From: Candidatus Spyradenecus sp. | GTDB lineage: Bacteria; Verrucomicrobiota; Kiritimatiellia; RFP12; DVOR01 | Reading direction: 5' to 3' | Assembly (NCBI GenBank): GCA_045634445.1 | Contig: JAZRAG010000078.1 | Span: forward strand, 36-64,035 | DNA: 64,000 nt | Part shown: positions 2,309 to 16,360 of the stretch, in pieces | How positions within the stretch are numbered: the first letter of the stretch is position 1 | Layout: every line of letters begins with the position of its first letter | Program-made: the position numbers and the translations under genes | The notes under the pieces: generated by a model | Database searches by the model: none | Seen by the model: only the letters and a program-made list of their open reading frames with translations | Told to the model about the DNA's origin: nothing

Positions 2309-5024
2309 TTACGGATTCCCATAAAAACTCCCGGCAGTCTTTCGTTCTCCGAATATAAAATTGGCGATTTTTTCATACTCGTTACTGTCGTTCGTAACAA
2401 GCCTCAGCAGAGGAATATTGTTTTTGGCAAAAATGCTGTTTTTCAATTGATCCCGTTTGGATTGCCTGGTTCCGGATTTATGAAAATTGTAACCATCCAC
2501 CTCTATCCCGAAACAAGGAGTTTTGCCAAATTTTTCGTAAATCAGGAAATCAATATGAGTATTGGCATTACTCAAATACACTGCTTCCTCTTCTGACAAT
2601 CTCGGATTACTCCGGAATATCTCCCGCAAAGGGATGTGCATCCGGAAACAATAACGTCGGTCAACATCATTTGCCTGAAGAATCCCGGATAAGACTTGAT
2701 ATATAATTTCCTCTGCTGGGGAATCAAAAAATAAGTGTTTATACTGATCGCAGTTTAAATGTTGCTGATATTCATCGTAAAGCATATCAAACACCGAAGT
2801 GATATTCCCTTGCGTAAACGCACTCTTGTCTAAATCATAATAACGGATATAATTTACTAAATCCCCGATGCAATTATCCCATTGCTGGTTTGAGGATGAT
2901 ACCACCAGATGAAATTCTTTTTTCGCCCGGGAAACGGCAACATTGATCAATTGCTCATCGGCAGTAAAATCGGATATTTGATTATCCACGGTTGACATAA
3001 TGATCACATCTTTTTCACGCCCTTGAAATTTGTGGACGGTGTGACCGCCAAGTCGTTCTGCCTGTTCCCGGAAAGGCGAACATAAGCCAATAGAGTCTGC
3101 GGGATAATGGTGATTTTGCACCAAATCATTGACCAAATTATCAATCTCCTGGCATTGCCGTAAGTTAAAATGTCCACGGGCATGATTGCCGGGAGCGGTA
3201 AAAAGCACTTTCAATGCCGGATTATTGCTCCATTGCGAATGGATCACCAGGTTATTGTCATAAAATTTCTGATTGCAAAAGCCAATAATCAACGGATCAC
3301 AGCGGTAATGTTCGCAAAGGGTAGTATTGGGGATTGCCGGAAGTGCCTGCTGCAATGAACTTAAAATACTTTGCCCAGCGTGATATTTATATTCATCGGC
3401 AATGTTGCACGAAGAATTCAATCCTGTCAATTTCAACTCATCTTCGGCAGTAATAACACACGGCAGTTGTTTATCATCCCCCACAATGACAACATTTTTT
3501 GCACAGGCAATCGCCACTGCTCCGGTACAGAGATCAACCTGTGAAGCCTCATCCATAATCAGCAAATCAAAACCGCCTCCCGGCATAAAATGATTTATCA
3601 TAAAGGTTGTTGATAACAACACCGGATATTCAGACAAAAAATCTTCATTCCGTAAATCCGATTTATAAAACTTTCTCCGTTCTTTATGGCAGACAGAATA
3701 TTTTTTGCGTAATTTCACCTTTAATAATTGCCATGACAACAAATTGAGAGTTTTGTGCTTATTTTCAAAATCAGCATTGGCGAGAGCTTTTTCAAGTTCG
3801 GCAACTTCGCTCTGTAATTCTGAAGATTTTTTCTGATAATACAGTTTTTTCAGGGCAACTGAAATTGTTTCAAGCGGTTGATTCCAAAATGTAAAATTCC
3901 AATGACGGCAAAATAATACTTGCCAGAGTTTGAACCAAAACGATAATTGTTTCTGCTTAATGCTGTGCATATTGCACTTGCTGAAAAGCAACATTAACTT
4001 TTCAGAAGATATTGCACAAGGCAATTGTGGTACATTCGGATAGCATTGCGTAAATTTTTCAGCTTCAATATCCCATTCGTGAAGTTGTGAAAGTTTTCTT
4101 TTCAACTCATTTTGTTTTTCAAAAAGAGTTTTCAATTCCCGGTGTAACGCATATAACCGTTGCTCATCATGCAAAGTAAAATCAATATTTTCATTGAGCC
4201 ACAACGGATAGTTAGGTTGGTTTTCTAAAAAATTCTCCTGATTGGCTTTGTTGCCGAGCAATGCAACCATAAAATCCAAGCCATTGGCGGCAGACAGTTT
4301 TTCCACAACATTCTGTATGGCGGAATTGTTGTTGGAAACGATTGCAACCCGTTGCCCATTAACAACTGCATTGACTAAAATGTTCAAAATAGTTTGAGTT
4401 TTACCAGTTCCCGGCGGTCCCTGAATCAAACTTAATGAGTTGGAAAAGGTTTGTTCAACAGCATTTAACTGGCTTTCATTGCATTGAAACGGGAAAATAT
4501 TTTTTTATCCGAGGAGCAGATTCTGGTAATACTCCGGAAAGATAAGTATACAGCGGAGAATTTACCGGAATATCTTTGATTTTTTCCAATGCATCAGCAA
4601 TAATGGTATTCGCTGGAGCATCCGGATCTTCAGACGGCAAATTCTTAACCATTTTTGCAACATTATGCAAGTAGTCAAGTACATCCGGCACACGGGTTTT
4701 CAGAATTTCAAAATCGCCGTGATGCAATTCCGTTTTTCTTTGCTTAGCGAAAAAGAGTTTCAAAAAGCTCCCGAATAAAACCTTTTTCTCTGCATTGAGT
4801 TCAATGCGACCATTGATTGCAATGTCGTTTTCTATGAGCGCAGGTTTTTCTGAAAAAATGATGTTTTTTCTGGCGTATGCAAAAGTTTTTTCGCTGTTAC
4901 GAAAAGAAATATCGACAAAATCGCCTCGGGATTTTATAGATTCCACATCTCCTGTCAAATCCTTAAATCCCTGTCGCTTGTCAACAATTAAAAACTTCTG
5001 CTCATCCATTTTCTGCGTAATCAA
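2309..5024 (-). pseudogene. SF1 (DNA2/NAM7-like) helicase with C-terminal DUF2726/Vsr-like nuclease domain, split by a frameshift at an A7 run
   Basis: ORFs 4476..5024 and 2309..4429 join through the alternative frame NIFPFQCNESQLNAVEQTFSNSLSLIQGPPGTGKT. Motifs GPPGTGKT, MDEASQ, EHYRC, TVHKFQGREKD, NVAVSRAK; C-terminal HIDF...IEVDG..FH. Could be an assembly error. Confidence 0.8.
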
Positions 5025-5827: not shown

Positions 5828-7831
5828 TCAAATTTTTAATATGTCAAGCATTTTTGCTTGATGATTTTTTATTTCTTCAAAAGTCCATGTCTGCTTATCG
5901 TGACATATTTGCATCATAATCATAAATTTTAAAGAGGCAACACTGACTTGTTTGACTTTACCAGAACTATCTAAATAATGGTCTAATTTTGTTTTCGGAC
6001 TCCAGTTAGAGCCAGAGCTGTTAATATCACTACCAATCATCGCATAATTACCCAAACAATTAATCTCTATTTGAGTTGGATTGCCATTTTTTCCGTCTGC
6101 GTTTGCTTGGGGGAAGTAATGTTCTAAACTACGCCGGGTGCGTGAAAAATAAAATTTTTGAAAAACAGGTAAATCAAAATCACTGCAACCTAAAGAATCA
6201 AAAAAATTATTTCTCTCAATTGATCCTTTTTCTACTTTTTTTCCACGTAGTTCATCAGCATATTTCTGCCAAATTTTGTAATCAAGATAATTAAATACAA
6301 ATAACGGAATTCCGGCAGATCTGTCGCCTATACCTGAGCCATAAATATTTTCAAATTCATTAACATTGTTTTGACAAGAAAGATTCAAATTATCATTATC
6401 TAAAATTTCATTATCAAAACTACCAGGGAGAGGTACATTGATTTCATTAAGATTATCATCTTTCAAGTAAATATCATTAAAATATTTACAAGCTAACTGC
6501 TCTAAAAATACAACATATTCTTTATAGGATTGCTTATCTGGTGTGTACCAGGCAAATAAATACAACAAAACGTATAACAAATAATTCTTTCGCTGACGAG
6601 CTGTAAATGATACTTCAAACATAGAAAGCAGTTGCAGAGCTTTATCTTGCCAATACTCATCTGTTATTAAATTTTTGGGGTATTGTCGAGCATTTTCTCC
6701 GTTTTGCCACAATTGAAGTTTCCATGGATTGTTTTCCATTGTGTCATCTTCACAGGAGTGATGCACGATAAAATTATCAAGAAAGAATTTTGCCTTGAGC
6801 AGGTTATAACAGAAATCTTTCACAAATTCTGTAGACAAACTGATTTTATCAAATTCATTAATCAATTCTTTATCATCTAAATTAAAATCATTAGGCTTGA
6901 AATCTTGCTTGTGATTTCGTATAAGAGTTAATTTCAAGACGATTAAAAGAAAATTGGAAAAATCAATAATTGGTTGGAAAAAATCTTTTTTATCCTCACT
7001 TGTTTTGTTCTGCTGCAGATTTGTTTCAAAATTCAACAAATTCTCGATTTGTTCGGTGTCAAAACAATCACAAAAATCCGGGAATTCATCAAACCTCTGG
7101 ATACAAAATTGCCGAAATTCTTGTCCCCAAAGTTCAGTTTTTGAAATTTTCTGTTGAATATAAACATTCATCTCGCTGCAGCATTCCCAAACTGTATTGA
7201 ATTTGCTTCCGAGCGTTCTATCATTTTTCAATGTTGCAAGCAATCGTGCTTTTATAATTTCATGTTTCTCTAACTGTTCACCACGAGAATTCATTATTTC
7301 AAAGTAGTGATTCAAGTCTATATCACGCGGTACTTTATAGTGAATAATATGCACATTGTTCAAAAAATACTTCTTGAAGCTTTCCAACTGTTCGTTAGAG
7401 ATTATTTCTTTAATTGCATTTTCAGCAAAACGATACCCATTAATAAGCCCCTGATCCTGTTCCTGAATAGCACACTTGGGGAGAGCTTTTAATGTATTGT
7501 CAGATTTTTCCCGAGCACGATAGGTTAAAGGATTGGAAATAGGAATTTTCAAAGCCTTCAAAATAAGGTTAATGGTGGTTAATCGCTGTTGTCCATCAAT
7601 AATTTCAAAGATATTATCACCTTTATAAAAGGATACAAGTGTACCTATATAATAAATACTTTTTTCATCTTTATTGAATGCATCAAACACATCTTGGATT
7701 AATGCGAAAACTTCATCCTTTTCCCACGCATAGTTACGCTGATATATTGGAATTTCCCAATAAGCATTTTCGCCATTATACAACTGTTCAATGGAGATTT
7801 CCTGCAAAGGGATCTTGTTATTATTCATCAC
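5828..7831 (-). CDS. DUF262 + DUF1524 (HNH) GmrSD-like restriction endonuclease
   Basis: IPIYQRNYAW, IIDGQQRLTT, FEIMNSRG; C-terminal SLEHYFPQ...LGNY...N HNH-like motif. Confidence 0.85.
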   Translation of the reverse strand: MMNNNKIPLQEISIEQLYNGENAYWEIPIYQRNYAWEKDEVFALIQDVFDAFNKDEKSIYYIGTLVSFYKGDNIFEIIDGQQRLTTINLILKALKIPISNPLTYRAREKSDNTLKALPKCAIQEQDQGLINGYRFAENAIKEIISNEQLESFKKYFLNNVHIIHYKVPRDIDLNHYFEIMNSRGEQLEKHEIIKARLLATLKNDRTLGSKFNTVWECCSEMNVYIQQKISKTELWGQEFRQFCIQRFDEFPDFCDCFDTEQIENLLNFETNLQQNKTSEDKKDFFQPIIDFSNFLLIVLKLTLIRNHKQDFKPNDFNLDDKELINEFDKISLSTEFVKDFCYNLLKAKFFLDNFIVHHSCEDDTMENNPWKLQLWQNGENARQYPKNLITDEYWQDKALQLLSMFEVSFTARQRKNYLLYVLLYLFAWYTPDKQSYKEYVVFLEQLACKYFNDIYLKDDNLNEINVPLPGSFDNEILDNDNLNLSCQNNVNEFENIYGSGIGDRSAGIPLFVFNYLDYKIWQKYADELRGKKVEKGSIERNNFFDSLGCSDFDLPVFQKFYFSRTRRSLEHYFPQANADGKNGNPTQIEINCLGNYAMIGSDINSSGSNWSPKTKLDHYLDSSGKVKQVSVASLKFMIMMQICHDKQTWTFEEIKNHQAKMLDILKI

Positions 7832-9294
7832 TTATTATCTCCGTATAAAAAGTTAAAACGTTCAAAAAATGTCAAATAATTTTGCGGAACTCCGGCAATT
7901 ATCTCTCCCCAATCGCGTTCTTGATTTTTGGCAATCATTGAAATCGGTGAAATTTTATCCGCCAGTTGTCCGAATAATCCCACAGGAGAGTCTGCTTCGG
8001 CGATTAGCTTATAAATATTGAATGAATTCACTATTTTTCCATTGCCCATGATGTAATTTTGAGCTGTTGGCCATCCTACATTATAATATTGTGCTCGCAT
8101 TGAGTAAGCCCAAATAAATGCTTGAATAACAAACTGGTTCAGCATTTCCAAATCTTTTTCATCAGGCTTTTCTGGACAAAATCGATCAACATAGAGTAAA
8201 ATTGCCGTATCAAATAGCAGACGAGTAATTCTGTTGCCCGTCCCATTCTTATACCTATGTAGATCAAGTGTCTTTACAATTTCGTTATCATTAATGTAAT
8301 ATCCGGAATATTTATCATTATTTTGAATATCCTGCAAAATATTAAAATAGTGCTTTGCGTAATCAAAGAAAGGCTTTCCAGCAATAATTGGAGTATCAAT
8401 TTGAAATGGTTTCAGATTGTGCATTCCTGATACAAACGGCATGGATGAATTATTAATCATATCTGCATATGCAAATGCCCCCTTATAAAATTGCGCATAC
8501 GAAAAATTATCTGCTCTGGTTATGCCTTTGAATTTTTGGATATTTTGCTCATTCAAATCCCACGCTTTATTTCCTTTAACCCATTCTTTCAAGCGGTAAA
8601 GGTAGTCACTAAAGAGAGAAGATAATGTTTTTTGATCCATATCTTCCCACTGTTTAACAGTTTTTTCTGTTATTTCAGCATCCAGATCATTCATTTCACG
8701 CAAATGATACGCTTTCAATAGATCGTGCGGATAAAGTTTTTTACCTCGAGCATTTTGCGAATCAAAAAATTGAAACGCTTCTGATAAATTATCTGTAATA
8801 ACTACAATTATTTCGCAATTATTTTTTATGTACTCTAAAAGATCTGCACGCTCTTTATCATCACGGATATTTTTAACACGTCGAAGCAATGCATGAAAAT
8901 TTATCGGTACATTGCGAATATTGTGCTGATTCTTTGCTAAAGGCTGCTTCAAAAATCTCAACTTCTCTGTCAAACCGTCATCAAGCGCTTTCAATAAAAG
9001 GGTAAATGTTATGATTCTTTGTTGACCATCAACGATGTTATACGTTTCGCGTTTTTCATGCAGAATCAAGGTTCCGACACGATAAACTTCTTTGTTTGTA
9101 TTTTTTGCTTCTATAATATCATCAAACAATTGCAAGGTGCTTTTCGCACTCCATTTATACGGTCGTTGATAATCAGGAATACGTAATTCTACATTATCTA
9201 TAGGCTGCCCGCTTGAGTTGATTGTGATTCGGTTATTAAGTAACAAATCTCCAATTTTTGCGATTGCCAAAGTTAATTTCATATTTTCACTCAT
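7828..9294 (-). CDS. DUF262 (GmrS/ParB-like) domain protein
   Basis: IPDYQRPYKW, IVDGQQRIIT, FFDSQNARGK; 4-bp ATGA overlap with the downstream gene. Confidence 0.85.
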   Translation of the reverse strand: MSENMKLTLAIAKIGDLLLNNRITINSSGQPIDNVELRIPDYQRPYKWSAKSTLQLFDDIIEAKNTNKEVYRVGTLILHEKRETYNIVDGQQRIITFTLLLKALDDGLTEKLRFLKQPLAKNQHNIRNVPINFHALLRRVKNIRDDKERADLLEYIKNNCEIIVVITDNLSEAFQFFDSQNARGKKLYPHDLLKAYHLREMNDLDAEITEKTVKQWEDMDQKTLSSLFSDYLYRLKEWVKGNKAWDLNEQNIQKFKGITRADNFSYAQFYKGAFAYADMINNSSMPFVSGMHNLKPFQIDTPIIAGKPFFDYAKHYFNILQDIQNNDKYSGYYINDNEIVKTLDLHRYKNGTGNRITRLLFDTAILLYVDRFCPEKPDEKDLEMLNQFVIQAFIWAYSMRAQYYNVGWPTAQNYIMGNGKIVNSFNIYKLIAEADSPVGLFGQLADKISPISMIAKNQERDWGEIIAGVPQNYLTFFERFNFLYGDNK

Positions 9295-9760
9295 GGATCA
9301 AATCTCCATTTTGATTTACTATATTCAAGCCCTGACCGGAGATGCCGTAGGCTTGGGGGATGTTTTCGTTTTGGAAGACGGCGAGGTATTTGGTCATGTT
9401 GGGAGCGAGTTTCCCGGAAAGCATTTCATCTAAAGTCATCCACTTGACGTTGCCTTCAACGGAACCGGTCAGTTCTCCGGAAAAGGTACTGGTTTTGAAA
9501 AGAAAAACAAAATATTGCGACTGTTTTATGGGATTATACCATTGAATATATCCACAATTCTGCAAGTTGGAAACGGTCAGTCCCGTTTCCTCCTGAACTT
9601 CGCGGATAATGGAAGCCACGACCGTTTCCCCCGGTTCAACATGTCCCCCGGGAAAAGTCAACCCCGGCCACGGATTCGACGGCTTGGGCAAGCGTTCCTG
9701 CACCAGAACGCGCCCATCCGCATCCGTTATCATGCACATATTACAAAGTTCAGTTTCCAT
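9287..9760 (-). CDS. NUDIX hydrolase (MutT-like)
   Basis: Nudix box GGHVEPGETVVASIIREVQEETGL. Confidence 0.9.
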   Translation of the reverse strand: METELCNMCMITDADGRVLVQERLPKPSNPWPGLTFPGGHVEPGETVVASIIREVQEETGLTVSNLQNCGYIQWYNPIKQSQYFVFLFKTSTFSGELTGSVEGNVKWMTLDEMLSGKLAPNMTKYLAVFQNENIPQAYGISGQGLNIVNQNGDLIHE

Positions 9761-9802: not shown

Positions 9803-11662
9803 TCATCCAATGTTCTTGTCTTTAGTAACTTGTTTTATAATCTTAACATCTTCAGAAGTCAAATCATATTGCTGAATCAACCATTTTTCAAATTCAGCGC
9901 AAGATTTCTCTATAACAACGTTTAACTCTTCTTGAGAAATTCGTGGAATCCCCAATTTTTTTATATAATTATGGGCAAGAGAATAATGATTAGTTCCGTA
10001 CGGTTTGCTTGTTGATAAAATATAAAACCAAAAGATACATGTCTCCATAATTTTTTTCAAAAAAAGTAAACTATTTGTATCTTTTGCCATTGCAGCCATG
10101 CCATTATAAAATAACATGTCATTATCATCACAGTAGACGGGGACGAATGCTTCTGTGGCAATGTGCGGAAAAAATAACTTCCCTTGATTAAAAACAAATC
10201 CTTGATTGCGTCCAAACGCATACCAATAAGTATATGTTTTTTTCCCTTTGTCTCTTGTTCTTAAAATTGCTTTTTTGCTCTCCAAATATTTGTATGCATA
10301 TGGATAATTTTTTTTAAAAAAATCCTCTGCCAAAAGTTTTTTTGTTTCAATATCATATGGGAATATAACATACTGTATATTTTCTGAAAAACTTTTCTCT
10401 GATGATATCTTGTTGGAATTTACAATTTTTGTGCAAACATTTTTTTCAATCTTATATTCAACACTATCTGACTGCAAGAAATAAAATGTCTTATTTTCTC
10501 TAACTGGCGAAAAGATATAAACATCGTTTTTCAATGTCGCAATACCGCTGGATGTGTCGTAAATATTTCCCAGCGGTTCTCCTGTATTTTCAATTTTTTT
10601 AATAATATCTACACTTGTTAAATTCCATCCATTGGAATTATCCAATAATTGCCTAGCAACAGGTGTCAGCATTATTTCCGAAAAGCATATTTTACTTTTC
10701 ATTCTAAAATAGTTAATAAAATCAGATGATTTTTTCTTAACAATACAGATACAAGTATAAGTAGATTTACTTTTAAAAACAGGAATGCTACCAAAATCTA
10801 AAATTTCCAAATGTAATTCCCCTGAATTCAAAAAATGACGTAGATTCCGCCCATTCACACTTTTAAAAAAAGTGTTCATCGTGATAAATCCAAGAACTCC
10901 ATTGGGGGCAAGCATTTCTACACCAATTTCAAAAAATGGTATATATAGATCTGGGTGTCCGACATTGCATGTTTTAAATTTTTTAAGCAATTTCAATGTC
11001 TCATCATTGAGATGGCGTGAGCAAACATACGGGGGATTACCTACAATAACATCAAACTTATCTTTACCGCAATGTTGCCTCCAATCAAAAGACAGAGCGT
11101 TCCCTGTAAAAATGTTAAATTCGAAAGAATCTGCATCTTCACCGGCAAGAACGGCGGCCAAGGTTAATAATATTTTTGATCTTTCGACGGCATATTTCTC
11201 AATGTCAACGCCATAAATTTGATTTTTATAGATATCTCTATAATTAATATGTAAATTATTATGTAAAAAATTTGCAGCAGTCAGTAAAAATCCTGCACAA
11301 CCACAAGCTAAATCACAGATACTGGGCAAAGTGTTTTGCTCTAAATTTATACTATTTTTTACAATATATTCTCGTATTGCTTCTGGAGTGTAAACTGCTC
11401 CGTTAACAATTTTGTCTGCAGGTGAAATGATGAATTCAAAAACCTCAATCAAATCTTCCAAACTTTTAATCTTGATTTTTTTATTGAGCAACATGAAAAG
11501 AGAAAAGTCTGAATCATCTTTTTTTATACTCAAGGAGTTTATTAGTTTGTTTTTGGAGCATTTGACATTGTTTTGTATTAAAAACACAGAGACAACAAGA
11601 CGATTGATCTCATCTGTTTTTTGAGTATATTTTGTCAAAAATTTCAACTCGTTTTTATTCAT
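9803..11662 (-). CDS. N6-adenine DNA methyltransferase (Eco57I/TaqI-like, gamma class)
   Basis: VYTP, motif I DLACGCAGFL, motif IV VIVGNPPY, C-terminal TRD-like region. Confidence 0.9.
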   Translation of the reverse strand: MNKNELKFLTKYTQKTDEINRLVVSVFLIQNNVKCSKNKLINSLSIKKDDSDFSLFMLLNKKIKIKSLEDLIEVFEFIISPADKIVNGAVYTPEAIREYIVKNSINLEQNTLPSICDLACGCAGFLLTAANFLHNNLHINYRDIYKNQIYGVDIEKYAVERSKILLTLAAVLAGEDADSFEFNIFTGNALSFDWRQHCGKDKFDVIVGNPPYVCSRHLNDETLKLLKKFKTCNVGHPDLYIPFFEIGVEMLAPNGVLGFITMNTFFKSVNGRNLRHFLNSGELHLEILDFGSIPVFKSKSTYTCICIVKKKSSDFINYFRMKSKICFSEIMLTPVARQLLDNSNGWNLTSVDIIKKIENTGEPLGNIYDTSSGIATLKNDVYIFSPVRENKTFYFLQSDSVEYKIEKNVCTKIVNSNKISSEKSFSENIQYVIFPYDIETKKLLAEDFFKKNYPYAYKYLESKKAILRTRDKGKKTYTYWYAFGRNQGFVFNQGKLFFPHIATEAFVPVYCDDNDMLFYNGMAAMAKDTNSLLFLKKIMETCIFWFYILSTSKPYGTNHYSLAHNYIKKLGIPRISQEELNVVIEKSCAEFEKWLIQQYDLTSEDVKIIKQVTKDKNIG

Positions 11663-11670
11663 ATGTCACC

Positions 11671-12360
11671 TCACACGAACATTGGAAACAATTTGTTCCT
11701 ATTGAATACTTCATGCGAGGATTCTGCTGAAAATCCATTAAAATATGGTTCCCAAAACATATCTTGCGAAAACTTAATTATAGTCTTGTAATCATTGTCA
11801 TTGAATATGGTTTCGAACTTTGGATAACATTTTCTTTCACAAAAATTGTGAAAAATAAAATGTAGGCATAAAAACGGATCCATAGGGGGATATGCTATCC
11901 GTGGAGCCTTAAACAATAATATTTCACCAGAATTCTTATCTTTTATGCCTCGTCCACCACAATGCATGTGATAATAGGGATGTGCCAAATTCTTTTTTGC
12001 TGAAGAATCATCTTGATCAAAATGCCAACAATAATGGCAATTACTACATGAGCCGCCAAAGGCAAGAATATTTATTTCATGTTTTCTTATCGCATTTAAC
12101 TTGTTAAACCTATCCACAACAAATGAAACATTTGCATTTATTGCAAGAGAAACACTACCCCCGTAATTAAAGCATAACGCTGCTTGTTCTTTTAAATTAA
12201 CAACAAGATTAGTAATTTCTGCATTAATACAATCTTGTTTTCGAACAAATTGAATGCGTTGTACAATGTCTGCACAATCAACAACGGAACAAGCATGTCT
12301 TTTTAGTATGCCTTGCATTTGTGCTTTATAAGTATTAAGTATGGTTATTACTGCTTGCAT
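11671..12360 (-). CDS. Uncharacterised protein with WHFD...HPYYHMH...PRIAYPPMD motif
   Basis: 229-aa ORF overlapping the response regulator gene and 8 bp from the MTase gene. Confidence 0.75.
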   Translation of the reverse strand: MQAVITILNTYKAQMQGILKRHACSVVDCADIVQRIQFVRKQDCINAEITNLVVNLKEQAALCFNYGGSVSLAINANVSFVVDRFNKLNAIRKHEINILAFGGSCSNCHYCWHFDQDDSSAKKNLAHPYYHMHCGGRGIKDKNSGEILLFKAPRIAYPPMDPFLCLHFIFHNFCERKCYPKFETIFNDNDYKTIIKFSQDMFWEPYFNGFSAESSHEVFNRNKLFPMFV

Positions 12361-13421
12361 TTAGCGTCCTTTTCTAACTGACGAAAACGTTGTTTTGCCT
12401 CTTTTGTTGCATACTTTTTGTATTTATCACTACCTTGCAAAATAGCCTCAAAAGAAATATATTCTTGTTCTTGCCATGGATAAAGATTACTTTGTAACAA
12501 CTCAAAGCCTTCAAGAGGATCCAATGCTTTCAACGTTGTCTGACAAATTGTCCAAAATCTACAACTTTGGGCATACGCAGGCAAGCTAATTGCATGCATT
12601 TTTTTTAATCCAGTTTTTTGAATAATCGCTTGAACTCTTTCTTCCGCAGTCAATTGCCTTAAAAATGTTTTACTAATATTCTTATCCCACCATAACTCAA
12701 CGCCCTGCGCCCACCAACGCGGATACATAGTACTAAAGACTCCATTGTATTGGTAGGAAGATAATAAATTTTTGAGAGCCTCCCAATCTGCAGAATTTTT
12801 TGAAACACCTAATCTTGCAGCCAAAACGTCCTCTCCAATTAAAATGCCAATCGGTTTAACAATCTGGTACAATACAAAAATTGCATTTTCATGCAAACTT
12901 GAAGAGTGTTCTGGTAATAAAAAAGTATTTTCTACAATGTCTGGTAAATGGATACCTTTGGGCACAGCAAGAATTTCACATAACTTGTGATGACGTTTAA
13001 TAAAATCATAGGCTTGAATGATATCTAACAGCATGCAGTTGTAGTAGTCCGGATTTTTGAGGTATTTTTCTTTTATGATAGAGTAGTCAAACAATTTACA
13101 AGAAGACATTTGCTTATAAAAGCTTGTTATTTTGCTTTCTGACGAAATAAGAATAATCGGAACATCATAAAATGACATAACACCGGGGGTGCGTAATGCT
13201 TGAGCTAAAGCGGGGGCATCATAACAATTATTTCCATTTGTCAAACGAAAATCAATAACAACTAATGAATAATTACCATTTTTCACCATTGTTGGCATTT
13301 CAGCAAAAGAATGTGGTTTTTCAAAGGAAACATTAAATTTTGTCTCCCGCTTTAATTGATTTGCTATAGTTGTAGCATTACAATCATCTATCAATAAAAT
13401 ATTATAAGTCATATTTTTCAT
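12348..13421 (-). CDS. Response regulator receiver domain with unknown ~230-aa C-terminal domain
   Basis: ILLIDD acidic pocket, VVIDFRL phosphoacceptor, IILISS, conserved Lys (SIIKEK). Confidence 0.85.
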   Translation of the reverse strand: MKNMTYNILLIDDCNATTIANQLKRETKFNVSFEKPHSFAEMPTMVKNGNYSLVVIDFRLTNGNNCYDAPALAQALRTPGVMSFYDVPIILISSESKITSFYKQMSSCKLFDYSIIKEKYLKNPDYYNCMLLDIIQAYDFIKRHHKLCEILAVPKGIHLPDIVENTFLLPEHSSSLHENAIFVLYQIVKPIGILIGEDVLAARLGVSKNSADWEALKNLLSSYQYNGVFSTMYPRWWAQGVELWWDKNISKTFLRQLTAEERVQAIIQKTGLKKMHAISLPAYAQSCRFWTICQTTLKALDPLEGFELLQSNLYPWQEQEYISFEAILQGSDKYKKYATKEAKQRFRQLEKDAKCKQ

Positions 13422-15765
13422 AATCCTTATCTGTTGCTTGCGGGAATTCTATACGAAAACATGTGGAAAAACCTTCTGGCGGAGATACGAGTTCTATTGA
13501 TCCACGATAACTGTCAACAATATCTTTGACTATCTTCAAACCCAAGCCACAACCGTGCATATCATTTTGCGAGAATTCACTGTATGCCTTGGGTGCAGTC
13601 GTAGTGAAAAATTCTTCAAAAATATGAGGTGCATCTTCTTCTGAAATACCATCACCAGTATCAGAAAACTCAAAAAATACTTTTTCATTTTCTCGTCCAC
13701 AAGAAAATATGATTTTTCCAGGGACTCCAGTGCGCTTTATTGCTTTTACAGAATTGCTAAACAAATTGAATAGTATCGCAGCTAATTCTGATGGATGCAT
13801 TGGTTTTGTGAACAAGCGATATTCATGTACATCTATTTCTGGCATTTCAATGTCATAATTTTTGGCTGTAGCAAGATGACTATTGCGGAAGCTATTTAAA
13901 TGTACAAAAATATCAAGAGGTTCAAGTTCTGTAATAAGACTATGGGAAACAGCTTCATCGAAAAAAGATGTATACGAATACAAAGCCGCAATATTTTCAG
14001 ACAGATTCTTTTCTGTCTTTAATACTACTTCTGCATCGGAAGCATTTTTACGCAACCCAACCAAATCGCAGGTTATGTAATCGACGCTATTTTTAATTTC
14101 ATGGGAAAACTGAGCCATTGACAATCCAATACTCGCCAATATACGCAAACGATTTCGTTCTGCCAAATATTTTTTTTGGAAAGCTTTTTTGGCATTTTCG
14201 GCATCTTTTAACGCGGTCTTTAAGGCTTTCTTTTTCTTTCTTTTACGCTTTTGGGCTTCTATGGAAACATCATTATCTTCTTCATCAAGCTCATCAATCA
14301 AACGAGCAATATTTTTTAGTTTTATCTCCAACGGCTCCCAACTTCCGTCATCATTTTTTTGCTGAGCTGCGGCCAGTTTTACTCCTCGAGAACGATTTAT
14401 TTGCAGTGTCGCTGAAATAATCAACTTAAAAAGCATATTTTTCAGTTGAATGAATGATTCCGTTTCCAGCAAGCCTTCACGGCTAGAGGTTTCACAGAAA
14501 ATATTTTGGGGATCCCTAATATCAACATAACCCCAATAGTTGTTGTTACCATGAGGAGGCAACAGAACTCTGTCTCTCACAGATTTATCTAATTTTAACC
14601 AGTCATCTCCAGGTTCGCCATATGGAAGCACTCTAAAGCCATTCCTGTAAAGTCGTATTCCTCCGTGCTTTTTTGTTTCTTCCTGCAACGCACGCAATTT
14701 ATTTGGTGGAACATGTTTTGCATCCAAAATGAAATAAAAAGCTTCAAATATCATTTCAGGAAGTTGTAAAAAGTGTTCTGGTATTGCTTCATTTTGCTCT
14801 GAAAAGTCAGATGATACCGTACCAGTCAAGTTTATATCAAATTTTTCACTATAAATACTATAATGAGCAATGCCTTTTTCATCTACATTACCCGTTATTT
14901 TTGCCAAAGCATAATCTGTTGCATTGAGTAAATCTGGTTTTACGAGTTTTTTCTCTCCAGCGTCAATTTTCAAAAAAGATACAGAAAAATAGTCCTTTGT
15001 TTCATCGGCATCTGCATTTTTTTCAATACAACCAGTATCTTTATCGAATTTTTGTGGAAATTCAGGCGGAGCAATACAGGGAGAAATGACATCTGTGATA
15101 TAGCGATATATTCTTTTTACTGAGGTCGTTGTCCATCTGTCGCGAAGGTTATTTATTATTAATTTGGTCCCTGTTTTTTTAGTCTCTGCATCAATTGATA
15201 TTTTATGCGAAACTAATGCTAATTCAGAAATCGAGTCATAATCATTCCAATCAATTTCCAACTTGAGAGCCTGTGGGGAATCGTCTGTTTTCGTAATAAT
15301 TGTTAAGTTTGTTCCTAAACGCTGAACAGCAAACCGTCCAATTCCTTTTTGACCGGCTCGTTTACGAAGAAATTTCTTAGAGAATGGATTATTTATTTTA
15401 TTGGCAGATGAAATACGCATAAATCCATTGATTAAATCAGCTCTCGACATCCCTTCGCCATTATCTTCTATAATTAAAGTTCCTCCCCCATTGTCTGCAT
15501 CAATGAAAGATAAGGTAACAACTCTTGCATCCGCATCGTAAGAGTTTTTTACAAGTTCTGCAACAGCTGTTTCTTGCCGAGAAACCAATTCTTGGCCCAG
15601 TCTTGTTATAAGTCCGGAGTCTACTGAAAAACGTGCATATTCTTGATCGCACAGTGCAATAGCTTGAGATAATTGCAATATAGCATTATAATCAGTAGGC
15701 GTCTTGCTTAACTCTTGTGCAAGTTCTTTTTTCAAGAAAGAGAGTTTATCTGCCTGCTCGCTCAT
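13402..15765 (-). CDS. GHKL (MORC/MutL-like) ATPase fused to a complete histidine kinase
   Basis: N-terminal ELVKNSYDADA, DNGEGM, GQKGIGRFA; C-terminal H-box FSHEIKN, N-box NLFSNSVKA, DTGDGI, FFTT, GLGL. Confidence 0.9.
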   Translation of the reverse strand: MSEQADKLSFLKKELAQELSKTPTDYNAILQLSQAIALCDQEYARFSVDSGLITRLGQELVSRQETAVAELVKNSYDADARVVTLSFIDADNGGGTLIIEDNGEGMSRADLINGFMRISSANKINNPFSKKFLRKRAGQKGIGRFAVQRLGTNLTIITKTDDSPQALKLEIDWNDYDSISELALVSHKISIDAETKKTGTKLIINNLRDRWTTTSVKRIYRYITDVISPCIAPPEFPQKFDKDTGCIEKNADADETKDYFSVSFLKIDAGEKKLVKPDLLNATDYALAKITGNVDEKGIAHYSIYSEKFDINLTGTVSSDFSEQNEAIPEHFLQLPEMIFEAFYFILDAKHVPPNKLRALQEETKKHGGIRLYRNGFRVLPYGEPGDDWLKLDKSVRDRVLLPPHGNNNYWGYVDIRDPQNIFCETSSREGLLETESFIQLKNMLFKLIISATLQINRSRGVKLAAAQQKNDDGSWEPLEIKLKNIARLIDELDEEDNDVSIEAQKRKRKKKKALKTALKDAENAKKAFQKKYLAERNRLRILASIGLSMAQFSHEIKNSVDYITCDLVGLRKNASDAEVVLKTEKNLSENIAALYSYTSFFDEAVSHSLITELEPLDIFVHLNSFRNSHLATAKNYDIEMPEIDVHEYRLFTKPMHPSELAAILFNLFSNSVKAIKRTGVPGKIIFSCGRENEKVFFEFSDTGDGISEEDAPHIFEEFFTTTAPKAYSEFSQNDMHGCGLGLKIVKDIVDSYRGSIELVSPPEGFSTCFRIEFPQATDKDYEKYDL

Positions 15766-15767
15766 AA

Positions 15768-15962
15768 TTATTCTCCTGCTCGTCCAGACTTAATCCACAT
15801 ATCCACTTCTGACAGTTTGAATTTTCAGAATTTGCCGATGCGGTGTCCAGGGAGATTTTTCTTTTCAAGGTACACATATATCGTCTCCCGGCGGACACCG
15901 AGATATTCTGCGATTTCTTTGATGAATAGCCATCTGTCTTCTATCAAATCAAGCTTTTTCAT
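15768..15962 (-). pseudogene. Excisionase-like (HTH_17/MerR-type) DNA-binding protein with in-frame TGA
   Basis: Manual translation MKKLDLIEDRWLFIKEIAEYLGVRRETIYVYLEKKNLPGHRIGKF*KFKLSEVDMWIKSGRAGE; TGA at 15825-15827 where this family usually has Trp. Confidence 0.8.
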
Positions 15963-16360
15963 TGCAATATTCCTGAAACGCCCAAACTTTCATTCTTTTG
16001 GAAATAGTGTCACCACATATCGTTCGGGATAATATATCAATATTATCGTGATTTTTCAAACAGAAATGCAAGAAAAAGTGTTAGTTTTATGCAGTTTTTG
16101 CTGGCTTTACTTCATTTTCAGGATGTGTCATGAGAATGGAATCATTCTTGTTGTTCCATATTGCTCAAATGCCTGTTGCAAGTGTTCCTGGTCGGAATCA
16201 CTGTCAGTTGCATCAGGATAATGCGAAACAGGAAGTTCCCGGCAAGAAAGAGTTCCAGCAGAATAAATATATTCTCCATACTCCAGACTGCCGCCTTCTT
16301 CATAACGAAGCAAAAAAGATTTTATGGGGGCAATTTCGTTGAGAAACTTTATCAGCGTAA

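What the first reader, a model, noticed from the sequence alone, without database searches (positions are those of the whole stretch)
9803..15962. Two-component signalling wired into a restriction-modification-like operon (HTH - GHKL/HK - RR - unknown - N6 MTase)
Seen: tightly coupled genes. A MORC/MutL-type GHKL ATPase is fused to a full histidine kinase (H, N, G1, F, G2 boxes intact). It is followed by a receiver with intact phosphoacceptor plus an unknown output domain, a 229-aa unknown, and an adenine MTase with no obvious cognate REase. This core is intact while the island edges are pseudogenised. Known: MORC/MutL ATPases, some fused to kinases, were described bioinformatically in R-M neighbourhoods. 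I do not know of an experimental mechanism for this gene set. Inference: a phosphorelay-gated antiphage system in which the GHKL module senses unmethylated or foreign DNA and activates an effector through the receiver.
Basis: partly seen in the sequence, partly recalled or inferred. Interest (0 to 1): 0.8.

Follow-up and report, generated by a model that had tools for sequence, protein, structure and literature searches.

The report
Kinase-gated restriction-modification defence cassette
This is a real, widely conserved four-gene cassette (MutL-like ATPase fused to a histidine kinase, a receiver protein, an orphan 229-aa protein, a DNA adenine methylase) and a new variant of the recently validated 'Ambrosia' phage-defence family, with an unknown protein where Ambrosia has its HNH nuclease.

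Summary
They overlap or nearly abut, and their catalytic motifs are intact. One exception: the small HTH gene has a TGG>TGA nonsense codon that three close relatives lack.

The four core genes (kinase, receiver, 229-aa 'G3', methylase) occur in the same order in all 61 fetched loci that are long enough to show them. These come from Bacteroidota, Aliivibrio, a Bacilli MAG, a plasmid and metagenomes. No other gene is conserved beside them. All four are under purifying selection.

The idea is not new. Kinase-fused paraMORC ATPases with receiver partners next to R-M genes were described in 2021. A five-gene relative, Ambrosia, was shown in a 2025 preprint to protect against phage, and that protection needs the GHKL Asn, the receiver Asp, the methylase and the HNH nuclease. 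The window kinase is homologous to Ambrosia AbrB (28% identity, E 1e-37). Plasmid relatives have kinase, receiver, HNH, methylase in the window's order, so G3 sits in the nuclease slot.

G3 and the receiver's ~210-aa C-terminal domain match nothing in Pfam, PADLOC or the PDB (fold search for G3, sequence only for the C-terminal domain).

Verdict: a new variant of a known kind. The effector is probably G3, and its mechanism is unproven.

The parts
16028..16059 (-). Promoter-like site (TTGAAA 16059-16054, 17 nt spacer, TATATT 16036-16031). A perfect 8-bp inverted repeat GATAATAT-N4-ATATTATC (16028-16047) overlaps the -10. This is a likely operator and promoter for the cassette.
   Evidence: Consensus scan and inverted-repeat search. 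The ~95 bp upstream of the HTH start are almost invariant in the window, L022, L024 and L026, while sequence further upstream diverges. Function is inferred, not shown.
15768..15962 (-). HTH_17 (excisionase/MerR-type) regulator gene. It is a 64-codon frame interrupted by TGA at codon 46 (15825-15827). It is an accessory part, not a core part.
   Evidence: Pfam HTH_17 E 1.5e-7. NCBIfam MAD1 scores 46.5 bits, below its cut-off of 80. L022, L024 and L026 have TGG here and an intact 64-aa ORF. Translation was checked. An upstream HTH is present in only some family loci, and there it is XRE-type.
13402..15765 (-). paraMORC-type GHKL ATPase fused through a coiled coil to a histidine-kinase core (787 aa). 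Homologue of Ambrosia AbrB.
   Evidence: Pfam. Motif conservation in 20 orthologues. BLASTP against AbrB residues 12-398 gives 28% identity, E 1e-37. dN/dS is 0.08.
15232..15573 (-). N-terminal GHKL (HATPase_c_3) ATP-binding domain, residues 65-178. N74 corresponds to AbrB N40.
   Evidence: The AbrB N40A mutant is listed in the preprint supplement.
14095..14112 (-). H box (QFSHEI). The predicted phospho-accepting His555 is at 14101-14103.
   Evidence: F553, H555 and E556 are invariant in 20 orthologues. Coordinates were checked. No Pfam HisKA or HEF_HK hit.
13435..13794 (-). Kinase catalytic (HATPase_c) domain, residues 658-777, carrying the N, G1, F and G2 boxes.
12348..13421 (-). Receiver protein (357 aa). 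It has a CheY-fold REC domain (residues ~1-145; Asp57 codon at 13251-13253) and a family-specific C-terminal domain.
   Evidence: D13, D57, S93 and K117 are invariant. AlphaFold pLDDT 90 and Foldseek hits to CheY. Weak sequence hits to REC domains only. dN/dS is 0.08-0.15.
12351..12989 (-). C-terminal domain of the receiver protein (residues 145-357), of unknown fold class. It is rich in Trp and Arg and carries a conserved GxLIGEDVLAARLGV motif. It contains a helix-strand-helix-helix stretch that may be a winged helix.
   Evidence: 699 / 540 / 374 representative proteins at E <= 1e-3 / 1e-10 / 1e-30 among 1.84 billion. All listed hits are ~350-390 aa or fragments. No PDB sequence hit. No Pfam hit in 43 members scanned. 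No match to the C-termini of other receiver variants.
11671..12360 (-). G3, an orphan 229-aa protein and the putative effector. Its conserved core is at 11845-12024 (H113-x-D115, H127-P-x-Y130-H131, P153-R154, H157, D161, N172).
   Evidence: Invariant residues in 42 members. AlphaFold pLDDT 79.5. No fold match in the PDB or BFVD, best E 0.2. No consistent sequence match in the PDB, Pfam, PADLOC or PHROGs. It occupies the position of the HNH gene in L083 and L084. dN/dS is 0.17-0.19.
9803..11662 (-). Gamma-class N6-adenine DNA methyltransferase with its own target-recognition domain (619 aa). NPPY is at 11027-11038.
   Evidence: Pfam Eco57I E 1e-31 and N6_Mtase E 7e-20. PADLOC MTase_II E 4.5e-94 over the full length. 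PDB relatives CamA (E 9e-25), M.BseCI and M.TaqI. N209-P-P-Y212 is invariant. Related to AbrA, E 7e-7.

Best explanation
The region encodes a self-contained four-gene anti-phage cassette of the Ambrosia class, a two-component system built into a restriction-modification-like operon.

**Proposed order of events:**
1. The MutL/MORC-like GHKL-plus-transducer half of the kinase acts as an ATP-driven sensor of infection or of foreign DNA. This step is inferred.
2. That signal passes through the coiled coil and changes autophosphorylation at His555. The phosphoryl group then moves to Asp57 of the overlapping receiver gene's product. The motifs are shown. The chemistry is inferred, but mutants of the homologous Ambrosia support it.
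3. The phosphorylated receiver uses its novel C-terminal domain to switch on the effector. It could do this by raising transcription of the whole operon from the palindrome-bearing promoter, or by binding G3 directly. This step is inferred.
4. G3 sits where relatives carry an HNH or metallo-beta-lactamase-fold hydrolase gene. I take it to be the effector, most likely a metal-dependent nuclease or other DNA-damaging hydrolase that uses its invariant His/Asp cluster. This rests on position and conservation only.
5. The sequence-specific N6-adenine methylase supplies the epigenetic mark that decides which DNA is attacked. I rate protection of host DNA as somewhat more likely than marking DNA for attack, about 60:40.

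The upstream HTH is an optional controller. It is inactivated in this copy.
For: **The cassette is a unit.**
- Strict four-gene synteny in 61 loci from several phyla, a plasmid and a viral contig, with no other conserved neighbour.
- Overlapping ORFs.
- dN/dS of 0.08-0.19 for all four genes.
- Both ATPase sites, the H box, the receiver D-D-S-K set and NPPY are invariant.

**It is related to Ambrosia.**
- The kinase is homologous to AbrB: 28% identity, E 1e-37.
- The methylase is related to AbrA, E 7e-7.
- The kinase HMM hits the kinases of HNH-type operons at E 1e-59 to 1e-64.
- The receiver HMM hits their short receivers at E 1e-5 to 1e-7 (hhalign probability 64-88%).
- The L083 HNH is homologous to AbrD, E 3e-15.

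**G3 sits in an effector slot.**
- L083 and L084 have the order kinase, receiver, HNH, N6 methylase.
- L029 has HTH, methylase, kinase, receiver, HNH.
- L085 has a metallo-beta-lactamase-fold hydrolase after the receiver.

**Experiment on the relative.** Ambrosia protects P. aeruginosa against phage. Mutations in each functional domain, including AbrC D60A, are reported to abolish defence, and the AbrB N40A and AbrD H60A constructs are listed in the supplement. Expression is induced on infection.

**Context.**
- Flanks are typical defence islands or mobile elements: GmrSD-like genes, McrBC, AbiE, pAgo, integrases.
- A GHKL-regulated nuclease, VcSduA (paraMORC3), is a proven defence protein.
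Against: - There is no experiment on this subfamily.
- G3 has no detectable similarity to any nuclease or to any known fold. Its role rests on position and on a conserved His/Asp pattern only. It could instead be a phosphatase, adaptor or sensor.
- The receiver's C-terminal domain could not be searched by fold on its own. REC hits swamped the whole-chain search.
- Similarity between the window receiver family and AbrC itself is not significant: probability 3.6%.
- The kinase and receiver match neither Pfam HEF_HK nor Response_reg_2.
- In Ambrosia the methylase did not protect phage. The role of methylation is therefore open.
- All four genes appear to be co-transcribed, so selective induction of the effector is not obvious.
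- In this window the HTH is broken, so regulation of this copy may be abnormal.
- The promoter and terminator scans are not above chance.
Confidence: 0.55

Rival explanations
1. This is a conventional Type II-like restriction-modification system whose expression is merely regulated by a two-component system. G3 would be a new restriction endonuclease that cuts unmethylated target sites, and the methylase would protect the host. The kinase and receiver (plus the HTH) would act only as transcriptional controllers, like C proteins, timing nuclease against methylase.
For: The methylase is a complete stand-alone sequence-specific enzyme of the CamA / M.BseCI / M.TaqI type. Small HTH genes of C-protein type precede some cassettes. 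A palindrome overlaps the -10. The 2021 study proposed regulatory control of R-M by such pairs.
Against: The kinase and receiver are strictly conserved and as constrained as the enzymes, whereas the HTH is dispensable. A MutL-like ATPase half is an odd sensor for a simple timing circuit. Nuclease and methylase lie downstream on the same overlapping transcript, so a timing role is hard to see. In Ambrosia, phage grown on the methylase were still restricted.
Confidence: 0.2
2. The cassette follows a 'mark and cut' logic, as proposed for Ambrosia. It would be silent until infection. The phosphorelay then induces it, the methylase modifies DNA in the infected cell, and G3 is a modification-dependent (Type IV-like) enzyme that attacks DNA carrying that mark.
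For: Ambrosia's authors report infection-induced expression. They classify its HNH as Type IV-like. Methylation did not protect phage. G3 has many invariant aromatic residues (W45, Y47, W112, Y130, F173, W203, Y206) that could form a methyl-base pocket. That last point is speculation.
Against: G3 is unrelated to the HNH proteins and matches no known methyl-base reader. A basal level of a translationally coupled methylase would mark host DNA and make the system self-toxic. No host toxicity was seen even in Ambrosia.
Confidence: 0.15
3. The cassette is not an immune system. It would be a selfish or epigenetic module in which the kinase and receiver adjust adenine methylation (gene regulation or addiction), and G3 is a signalling accessory such as a phosphatase or adaptor.
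For: G3 has no nuclease signature. Its His-rich motifs could suit a phospho-His or phospho-Asp phosphatase. Orphan adenine methylases such as CamA, the closest solved relative, are regulatory. CamA's role is from my own knowledge.
Against: Homologous operons carry bona fide nucleases in the G3 slot, and one of them is a proven defence system. Copies sit in defence islands and mobile elements and are often disrupted, as costly defence genes are.
Confidence: 0.07

Closest known systems
Ambrosia (AbrR-AbrA-AbrB-AbrC-AbrD), P. aeruginosa; bioRxiv 10.1101/2025.09.30.679545
   Same: - An N6-adenine methylase, a protein with an N-terminal HATPase_c_3 and a C-terminal kinase HATPase_c, a receiver protein with a phospho-acceptor Asp, and a small HTH, all in one operon.
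- The window kinase aligns with AbrB over the whole available 400 aa: 28% identity, E 1e-37, with N74 matching the mutated N40.
- The methylases are related, E 7e-7.
- Relatives that carry an AbrD-like HNH have the window's gene order.
   Different: - There is no HNH. The orphan G3 fills that slot.
- The receiver is 357 aa with a novel ~210-aa C-terminal domain, against 209 aa in AbrC. Similarity to AbrC is not significant.
- The methylase is 619 aa with a large target-recognition domain, against 448 aa, and lies last rather than first.
- The HTH is HTH_17, not XRE, and is broken here.
- The host range is mainly Bacteroidota, whereas Ambrosia is reported in Gammaproteobacteria.
- There is no experimental evidence for this variant.
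HEF_HK / Response_reg_2 'two-component-like' pairs linked to R-M systems (Bellieny-Rabelo et al. 2021, PMC8011034)
   Same: - The architecture HATPase_c_3 + DHp-like H box + HATPase_c.
- A soluble kinase, with an adjacent divergent receiver protein that has no known output domain.
- R-M genes and HNH or Vsr nucleases close by.
   Different: - That work was purely bioinformatic and centred on C5-cytosine methylases and Proteobacteria.
- Neither PF19191 nor PF19192 matches the window proteins or their family.
- G3 and the receiver's C-terminal domain are not described there.
paraMORC3 / GHKL-Shedu (VcSduA), PMC12137116; paraMORC families of Iyer et al. 2008, PMC2292703
   Same: A MutL/MORC-like GHKL ATPase controls a defence effector. 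In VcSduA both the ATPase site and the nuclease site are required. These ATPases are associated with R-M genes.
   Different: There the ATPase is fused directly to a PD-(D/E)xK nuclease, with no kinase core, no receiver and no methylase.
MADS (mad1-8), Maestri et al., bioRxiv 10.1101/2023.03.30.534895
   Same: A methylase-associated multi-gene defence system with an HTH (MAD1), an Eco57I-like methylase (MAD2) and a kinase-annotated component. The window HTH hits the MAD1 model (E 3e-12), and the methylase hits mad2 (E 1e-20).
   Different: MADS has eight genes over ~22 kb. MAD6-8 are mandatory for detection, and nothing here matches them. The MAD1 hit is below its cut-off, and generic methylase models fit the methylase far better.
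Detocs (DtcABC), a defensive two-component system (Rousset et al. 2023; recalled from memory, not read here)
   Same: The concept is the same: a His-Asp phosphorelay that gates an anti-phage effector carried on or beside a receiver protein.
   Different: The proteins differ (TPR sensor kinase, buffer receiver, PNP ATP-nucleosidase effector), and Detocs has no methylase and no GHKL/MORC module. The PADLOC scan of the window proteins returned only restriction-enzyme, MzaB and methylase models, none named Detocs. Whether that library holds Detocs models was not checked.
BbrUII/HgiDII-family Type II restriction enzymes (NCBIfam NF050001)
   Same: The N-terminal ~180 aa GHKL domain is similar: E 2e-22, model positions 3-180 of 659. 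PADLOC REase_II PDLC03419 also hits.
   Different: The score of 79 bits is far below the 550-bit cut-off. The remainder of those enzymes is not matched. They have no kinase core.

Membership tests
Ambrosia | Protein with an N-terminal HATPase_c_3 and a C-terminal kinase HATPase_c, homologous to AbrB | tested here: met
   Pfam. BLASTP against AbrB residues 12-398 gives 28% identity, E 1e-37. AbrB's own Pfam content comes from the preprint's Table S1.
Ambrosia | Receiver protein with a phospho-acceptor Asp (AbrC D60) | tested here: met
   D57 is invariant, and the fold is CheY-like. Direct similarity to AbrC is not significant. The link runs through the short receivers of L084 and L029.
Ambrosia | Winged-helix output on the receiver protein | tested here: inconclusive
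   The model shows a helix-strand-helix-helix stretch at residues 176-219. There is no fold or sequence match to a wHTH.
Ambrosia | N6-adenine methyltransferase (AbrA) | tested here: met
   Pfam Eco57I and N6_Mtase, with NPPY. BLASTP against AbrA gives E 7e-7.
Ambrosia | HNH endonuclease (AbrD) | tested here: not met
   No HNH is found anywhere in the cassette. G3 has no HNH hit in 42 members scanned and no similarity to AbrD or to the L029 and L083 HNH proteins.
Ambrosia | HipB-like XRE regulator (AbrR) | tested here: not met
   The window has an HTH_17-type gene with a premature stop. XRE-type HTHs precede only some family members.
Ambrosia | Anti-phage phenotype that depends on each domain | not testable with these tools
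   This needs cloning and plaque assays.
HEF_HK / Response_reg_2 TCS-like pair (PMC8011034) | Match to Pfam PF19191 (HEF_HK) in the kinase | tested here: not met
   No hit at E <= 10 in the window kinase or in four orthologues. Caveat: the C. jejuni and Deinococcus relatives do not hit it either, so I had no positive control for the model.
HEF_HK / Response_reg_2 TCS-like pair (PMC8011034) | Match to Pfam PF19192 (Response_reg_2) in the receiver protein | tested here: not met
   No hit in 33 family members at E <= 1 or in 10 more distant members.
HEF_HK / Response_reg_2 TCS-like pair (PMC8011034) | HATPase_c_3 + H box + HATPase_c kinase next to a divergent receiver gene, with R-M genes nearby | tested here: met
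Canonical two-component system | H, N, G1, F and G2 boxes in the kinase, and the D-D-T/S-K set in the receiver | tested here: met
   H555; N667/N671; D702xGxG; F716/F719; G738xGxG. D13, D57, S93, K117.
Canonical two-component system | Autophosphorylation and His-to-Asp phosphotransfer | not testable with these tools
   This is a biochemical assay.
MADS | MAD6, MAD7 and MAD8 present (mandatory in the authors' detection model) | tested here: not met
   PADLOC gave only a mad2 hit, to the methylase. No other mad model hit any of 10 island proteins. The model rules come from the preprint.
MADS | MAD1 HTH above the NCBIfam cut-off | tested here: not met
   46.5 bits against a cut-off of 80.
Classical Type II R-M system | A methyltransferase plus a recognisable cognate restriction endonuclease | tested here: not met
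   The methylase is present: PADLOC MTase_II E 4.5e-94. No protein of the cassette matches a nuclease family.
BbrUII/HgiDII restriction enzymes | Full-length match above the NCBIfam cut-off of 550 bits | tested here: not met
   79 bits, over the N-terminal GHKL domain only.

The most novel reading that the evidence does not exclude
G3 is the founding member of a new fold of DNA-targeting effector, a nuclease or glycosylase built on an H-x-D / H-P-x-Y-H / R...H...D...N site. It would be switched on after translation, by direct contact with the phosphorylated receiver through that protein's novel C-terminal domain. This would be the first restriction-type enzyme whose activity, not only its expression, is gated by a His-Asp phosphorelay that starts at a MutL/MORC-like DNA clamp.
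Probability: 0.3. Interest if true: 0.75.

Novelty: new variant of a known kind. Interest (0 to 1): 0.55.

Why it matters
Two-component signalling inside restriction-modification-like operons has only just been shown to work as immunity (Ambrosia, a 2025 preprint). How it senses infection and tells self from non-self is not known.

This cassette is a compact natural variant that keeps the kinase and methylase and swaps the effector.
- The receiver's C-terminal domain family has at least 374 clusters at 50% identity.
- The cassette is found in Riemerella, Flavobacterium, Tenacibaculum, Bacteroides and Aliivibrio.

Comparing it with Ambrosia can separate what belongs to the signalling core from what belongs to the effector. 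It also offers two uncharacterised protein modules for biochemistry: G3, which has no fold match, and the receiver's output domain.

If G3 is a nuclease it would add a new enzyme family to the R-M toolbox. If the MORC-like half senses DNA state, the system is a tractable bacterial model for how MORC ATPases couple DNA binding to a signalling output.

Tried and rejected
- **MADS lead.** It came from the HTH hit to NCBIfam MAD1 and the methylase hit to mad2. I rejected it: the hit is below cut-off, MAD6-8 are absent, and the sizes are 6 kb against 22 kb.
- **Pfam HEF_HK / Response_reg_2 membership.** No hits were found, and relatives gave no positive control.
- **G3 function by similarity.** All of these were negative or inconsistent:
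  - Pfam, NCBIfam, PADLOC and PHROGs on up to 42 members
  - PDB sequence profile
  - Foldseek against the PDB and BFVD, best E ~0.2 with p32 and Whirly-like hits of no weight
  - hhalign against three HNH proteins
- **By-eye motif comparisons for G3.** I compared it with PD-(D/E)xK, HNH, GIY-YIG, HKD, HD, 2H and 2OG-oxygenase motifs. None was convincing.
- **Receiver C-terminal domain.** The PDB profile search was negative.
- **Phage carriage.** Only 1 of 2.9 million viral contigs carries the cassette.
- **Host identity.** It could not be determined.
- **Promoter and terminator scans.** They were not above the shuffled expectation.

Full report
**1. What is in the sequence**

The first 19 kb of the window are a low-GC island, 30-44% against 50-60% elsewhere. 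Five minus-strand ORFs lie at the reported coordinates:

| Gene | Coordinates | Length |
|---|---|---|
| HTH | 15962-15825 | 45 aa as read |
| kinase | 15765-13402 | 787 aa |
| receiver protein | 13421-12348 | 357 aa |
| G3 | 12360-11671 | 229 aa |
| methylase | 11662-9803 | 619 aa |

The kinase and receiver genes overlap by 20 nt. The receiver and G3 genes overlap by 13 nt. G3 and the methylase gene are 8 nt apart.

*Kinase.* It carries HATPase_c_3 at residues 65-178 and a kinase HATPase_c at 658-777. Its N-terminal part is closest to MutL among solved proteins. In 20 orthologues the following are invariant:
- the Bergerat motifs of the N-terminal ATPase
- a strongly conserved GGIxLYRNGFRVLPY...DW...ETSSREG block, which I read as the transducer region
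- H555-E556
- the N, G1, F and G2 boxes

*Receiver protein.* D13, D57, S93 and K117 are invariant in 33 family members. The AlphaFold model is confident (pLDDT 90), and its N-terminal domain matches CheY.

*Methylase.* It is a gamma-class N6-adenine enzyme with NPPY and its own target-recognition domain. It is nearest to CamA, M.BseCI and M.TaqI.

*G3.* It has no hit in Pfam, NCBIfam or PADLOC.

*One correction to the observation.* The HTH gene is a 64-codon frame broken at codon 46 by TGA (15825-15827). The three closest relatives have TGG there and an intact ORF.

**2. It is a conserved unit**

The receiver protein and G3 each define a family.
- The word-indexed search found 46 and 42 clusters respectively.
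- An exhaustive profile search with the receiver's C-terminal domain found 699 representative proteins at E <= 1e-3, 540 at 1e-10 and 374 at 1e-30, among 1.84 billion. The listed hits share one architecture.

I fetched loci from four sources:
- isolate genomes and MAGs
- contigs that encode homologues
- a Hymenobacter plasmid
- 50 metagenome contigs of the more distant clade, and one viral contig

All 61 loci long enough to show them have kinase, receiver, G3 and methylase in that order. None has another gene in place of G3. No flanking gene is conserved. In Riemerella the four genes sit alone between housekeeping genes. A small HTH precedes only some copies and is of a different family there.

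Against two close relatives, dN/dS is 0.08-0.19 for all four genes.

Flanks are typical of defence islands or mobile elements:
- GmrSD-like genes here and in L004
- McrBC in L022
- AbiE-like pairs, integrases, ArdC
- a pAgo on the Hymenobacter plasmid

Several copies are disrupted.

**3. What is already known**

- Iyer et al. 2008 defined paraMORC GHKL ATPases in R-M operons. They do not mention kinase fusions or receivers.
- Bellieny-Rabelo et al. 2021 described HATPase_c_3 + 'HEF_HK' + HATPase_c proteins paired with 'Response_reg_2' proteins near R-M genes, mostly C5 methylases, with HNH or Vsr nucleases. The work was purely computational.
- A September 2025 preprint validated 'Ambrosia' in P. 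aeruginosa. Its genes are an XRE regulator AbrR, an N6 methylase AbrA, a HATPase/kinase AbrB, a receiver AbrC and an HNH AbrD.
  - The authors report that mutating any functional domain abolishes protection, and they state this explicitly for AbrC D60A.
  - Expression rises on infection.
  - Methylation by AbrA does not protect phage.
  - The authors propose transcriptional gating.
  - The supplement lists the mutants, including AbrB N40A in the N-terminal GHKL, and gives sequences.

**4. How the window relates to these systems**

| Comparison | Result |
|---|---|
| Window kinase 46-435 vs AbrB 12-398 | 28% identity, E 1e-37; N74 aligns with N40 |
| Methylase vs AbrA | E 7e-7 |
| Kinase vs plasmids (tblastn) | full-length relatives at ~25% identity |

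The annotated neighbourhoods of those plasmid relatives are the key result:

| Locus | Organism | Gene order |
|---|---|---|
| L083 | Bacteroides finegoldii | kinase, 209-aa receiver, HNH, N6 methylase |
| L084 | Bacillus | kinase, 215-aa receiver, HNH, N6 methylase |
| L029 | Deinococcus | HTH, Eco57I methylase, kinase, receiver, HNH |
| L028 | C. jejuni | kinase, 340-aa receiver, dcm |
| L085 | Pseudanabaena | kinase, small protein, MBL-fold hydrolase |

Further points:
- The L083 HNH is homologous to AbrD, E 3e-15.
- Family HMMs hit the kinases of these operons at E 1e-47 to 1e-68, and the short receivers at E 1e-5 to 1e-7.
- hhalign supports homology of the REC domains, with probability 64-88%.
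- The receiver's C-terminal domain matches nothing in those receivers. G3 matches none of the HNH proteins.
- Neither Pfam HEF_HK nor Response_reg_2 detects the family. I had no positive control for those models.

The cassette is therefore a member of the broader paraMORC-kinase / receiver / methylase class and a relative of Ambrosia. It differs in having a different gene in the effector slot and a different receiver output.

**5. The two unknown modules**

*G3.* The model is of moderate confidence (pLDDT 79.5). It shows N-terminal helices, a six-stranded antiparallel sheet and C-terminal helices.
- Foldseek finds nothing in the PDB or BFVD, best E about 0.2.
- Profile searches of PDB sequences, Pfam, PADLOC and PHROGs give no consistent hit.
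- The N-terminal half is variable.
- The C-terminal half carries invariant H113, D115, H127, P128, Y130, H131, P153, R154, P159, N172 and F173, and near-invariant H157 and D161.
- That pattern looks like a metal or catalytic site. I could not assign it to a known nuclease motif.

*Receiver C-terminal domain.* It has few invariant acidic or His residues. It has many Trp, Arg and Gly residues and a GxLIGEDVLAARLGV motif inside a helix-strand-helix-helix stretch. It looks like a binding domain, possibly a winged helix, rather than an enzyme.

**6. Regulation**

- A promoter-like site (TTGAAA, 17 nt, TATATT; 16059-16031) lies upstream of the HTH.
- A perfect palindrome GATAATAT-N4-ATATTATC (16028-16047) overlaps its -10.
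- The ~95 bp before the HTH start are nearly invariant among four relatives that differ by 5-11% in the genes.
- This is a plausible operator for the HTH protein or the receiver. It is inference only, and the scan as a whole is not above chance.

**7. Most likely mechanism, and how sure**

I propose that the MutL/MORC-like half of the kinase senses infection or foreign DNA, and that the signal then passes through His555 and Asp57 to the receiver. The receiver's C-terminal domain switches on G3 as the effector, either by auto-inducing the whole operon or by direct contact. The methylase supplies the mark that separates self from target.

| Step | Status |
|---|---|
| Gene set, motifs, synteny, selection, homology to AbrB | shown here |
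| Need for the receiver Asp and for each functional domain (GHKL, methylase, HNH constructs listed) | reported in the homologue only |
| The sensed signal, G3's activity, the route from receiver to G3, the sense of methylation | inferred |

I give 0.55 to the overall statement: an Ambrosia-class defence system working through the phosphorelay, with G3 as effector.

The rivals are:
- classical R-M merely regulated by the two-component pair (0.2)
- Ambrosia-style 'mark and cut' (0.15)
- a non-immune epigenetic or selfish module with G3 as a signalling accessory (0.07)

In this particular genome the HTH is broken and the island is decaying. The four core genes are nevertheless intact and 95% identical over 6.3 kb to an independent copy.

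**8. Novelty and verdict**

The class has been described (2021) and a relative validated (2025), so it is not categorically new. Three things are new:
- a strictly conserved and fairly large subfamily that is absent from PADLOC-DB 2.0 (2023) and unmatched in Pfam, and that I did not find in the searchable literature
- an orphan-fold protein in the nuclease slot
- a novel receiver output domain

I rate it a new variant of a known kind, with interest 0.55.

Noticed in passing
window 16028-16059 (minus strand): A perfect 8-bp inverted repeat GATAATAT-N4-ATATTATC overlaps the -10 of a promoter-like site upstream of the HTH. The ~95 bp before the HTH start are almost invariant in the window, L022, L024 and L026, while sequence further upstream diverges. 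It is a likely operator.
   Followed up: partly
window 9803-15765 compared with L022: Divergence is mosaic. Kinase codons 1-533 (sensor half) and methylase codons ~33-366 differ by 4-14%. The kinase DHp/CA, the receiver, G3 and the methylase C-terminus differ by 0-3% (dS 0.24-0.26 against 0.02-0.05). The recombination breakpoints fall at domain borders. The sensor half and the methylase catalytic part may be exchanged together.
   Followed up: partly
L001, L018, L020, L044, L067, L071; 90% cluster of the window kinase: Cassette genes are disrupted in several genomes: split kinase, split receiver with an insertion, truncated G3, split methylase. The kinase cluster holds many 238-267-aa fragments seen on up to 22 contigs. 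This suggests frequent inactivation, as expected for a costly system.
   Followed up: no
window 5828-9760 (minus strand): Three overlapping genes: a NUDIX hydrolase (9760-9287), a DUF262/GmrSD_N + DUF7834 protein (9294-7828) and a GmrSD_N + GmrSD_C protein (7831-5828). The PADLOC hits are PDC-S07 and HEC-06. This looks like a two-protein GmrSD-type modification-dependent restriction set, comparable to GrwAB/TgvAB in PMC12137116, with a NUDIX partner.
   Followed up: no
[not shown]
   Followed up: no
window 2309-5024 (minus strand): A 706-aa helicase-like ORF starts inside its P-loop (MIQGPPGTGKT). A separate 182-aa ORF lies just upstream. This is probably a frameshifted or truncated helicase-nuclease defence gene.
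   Followed up: no
L022 6858-9505; L027 1-4955; L004 13751-15890: The same cassette lies beside different defence genes in other genomes: McrBC (L022), a pAgo/Piwi protein plus a large methyltransferase on a Hymenobacter plasmid (L027), and GmrSD_N plus a RelA_SpoT protein (L004). It moves as a unit between defence islands.
   Followed up: partly
L085 (Pseudanabaena plasmid), L086 (Clavibacter), L087 (B. thuringiensis), L028 (C. jejuni plasmids): These are further uncharacterised variants of the paraMORC-kinase module. Partners include an MBL-fold hydrolase with no methylase, a 630-aa unknown protein plus a methyltransferase, a 374-aa plus a 193-aa unknown, and a 340-aa receiver with dcm only. 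The effector slot appears highly modular.
   Followed up: no
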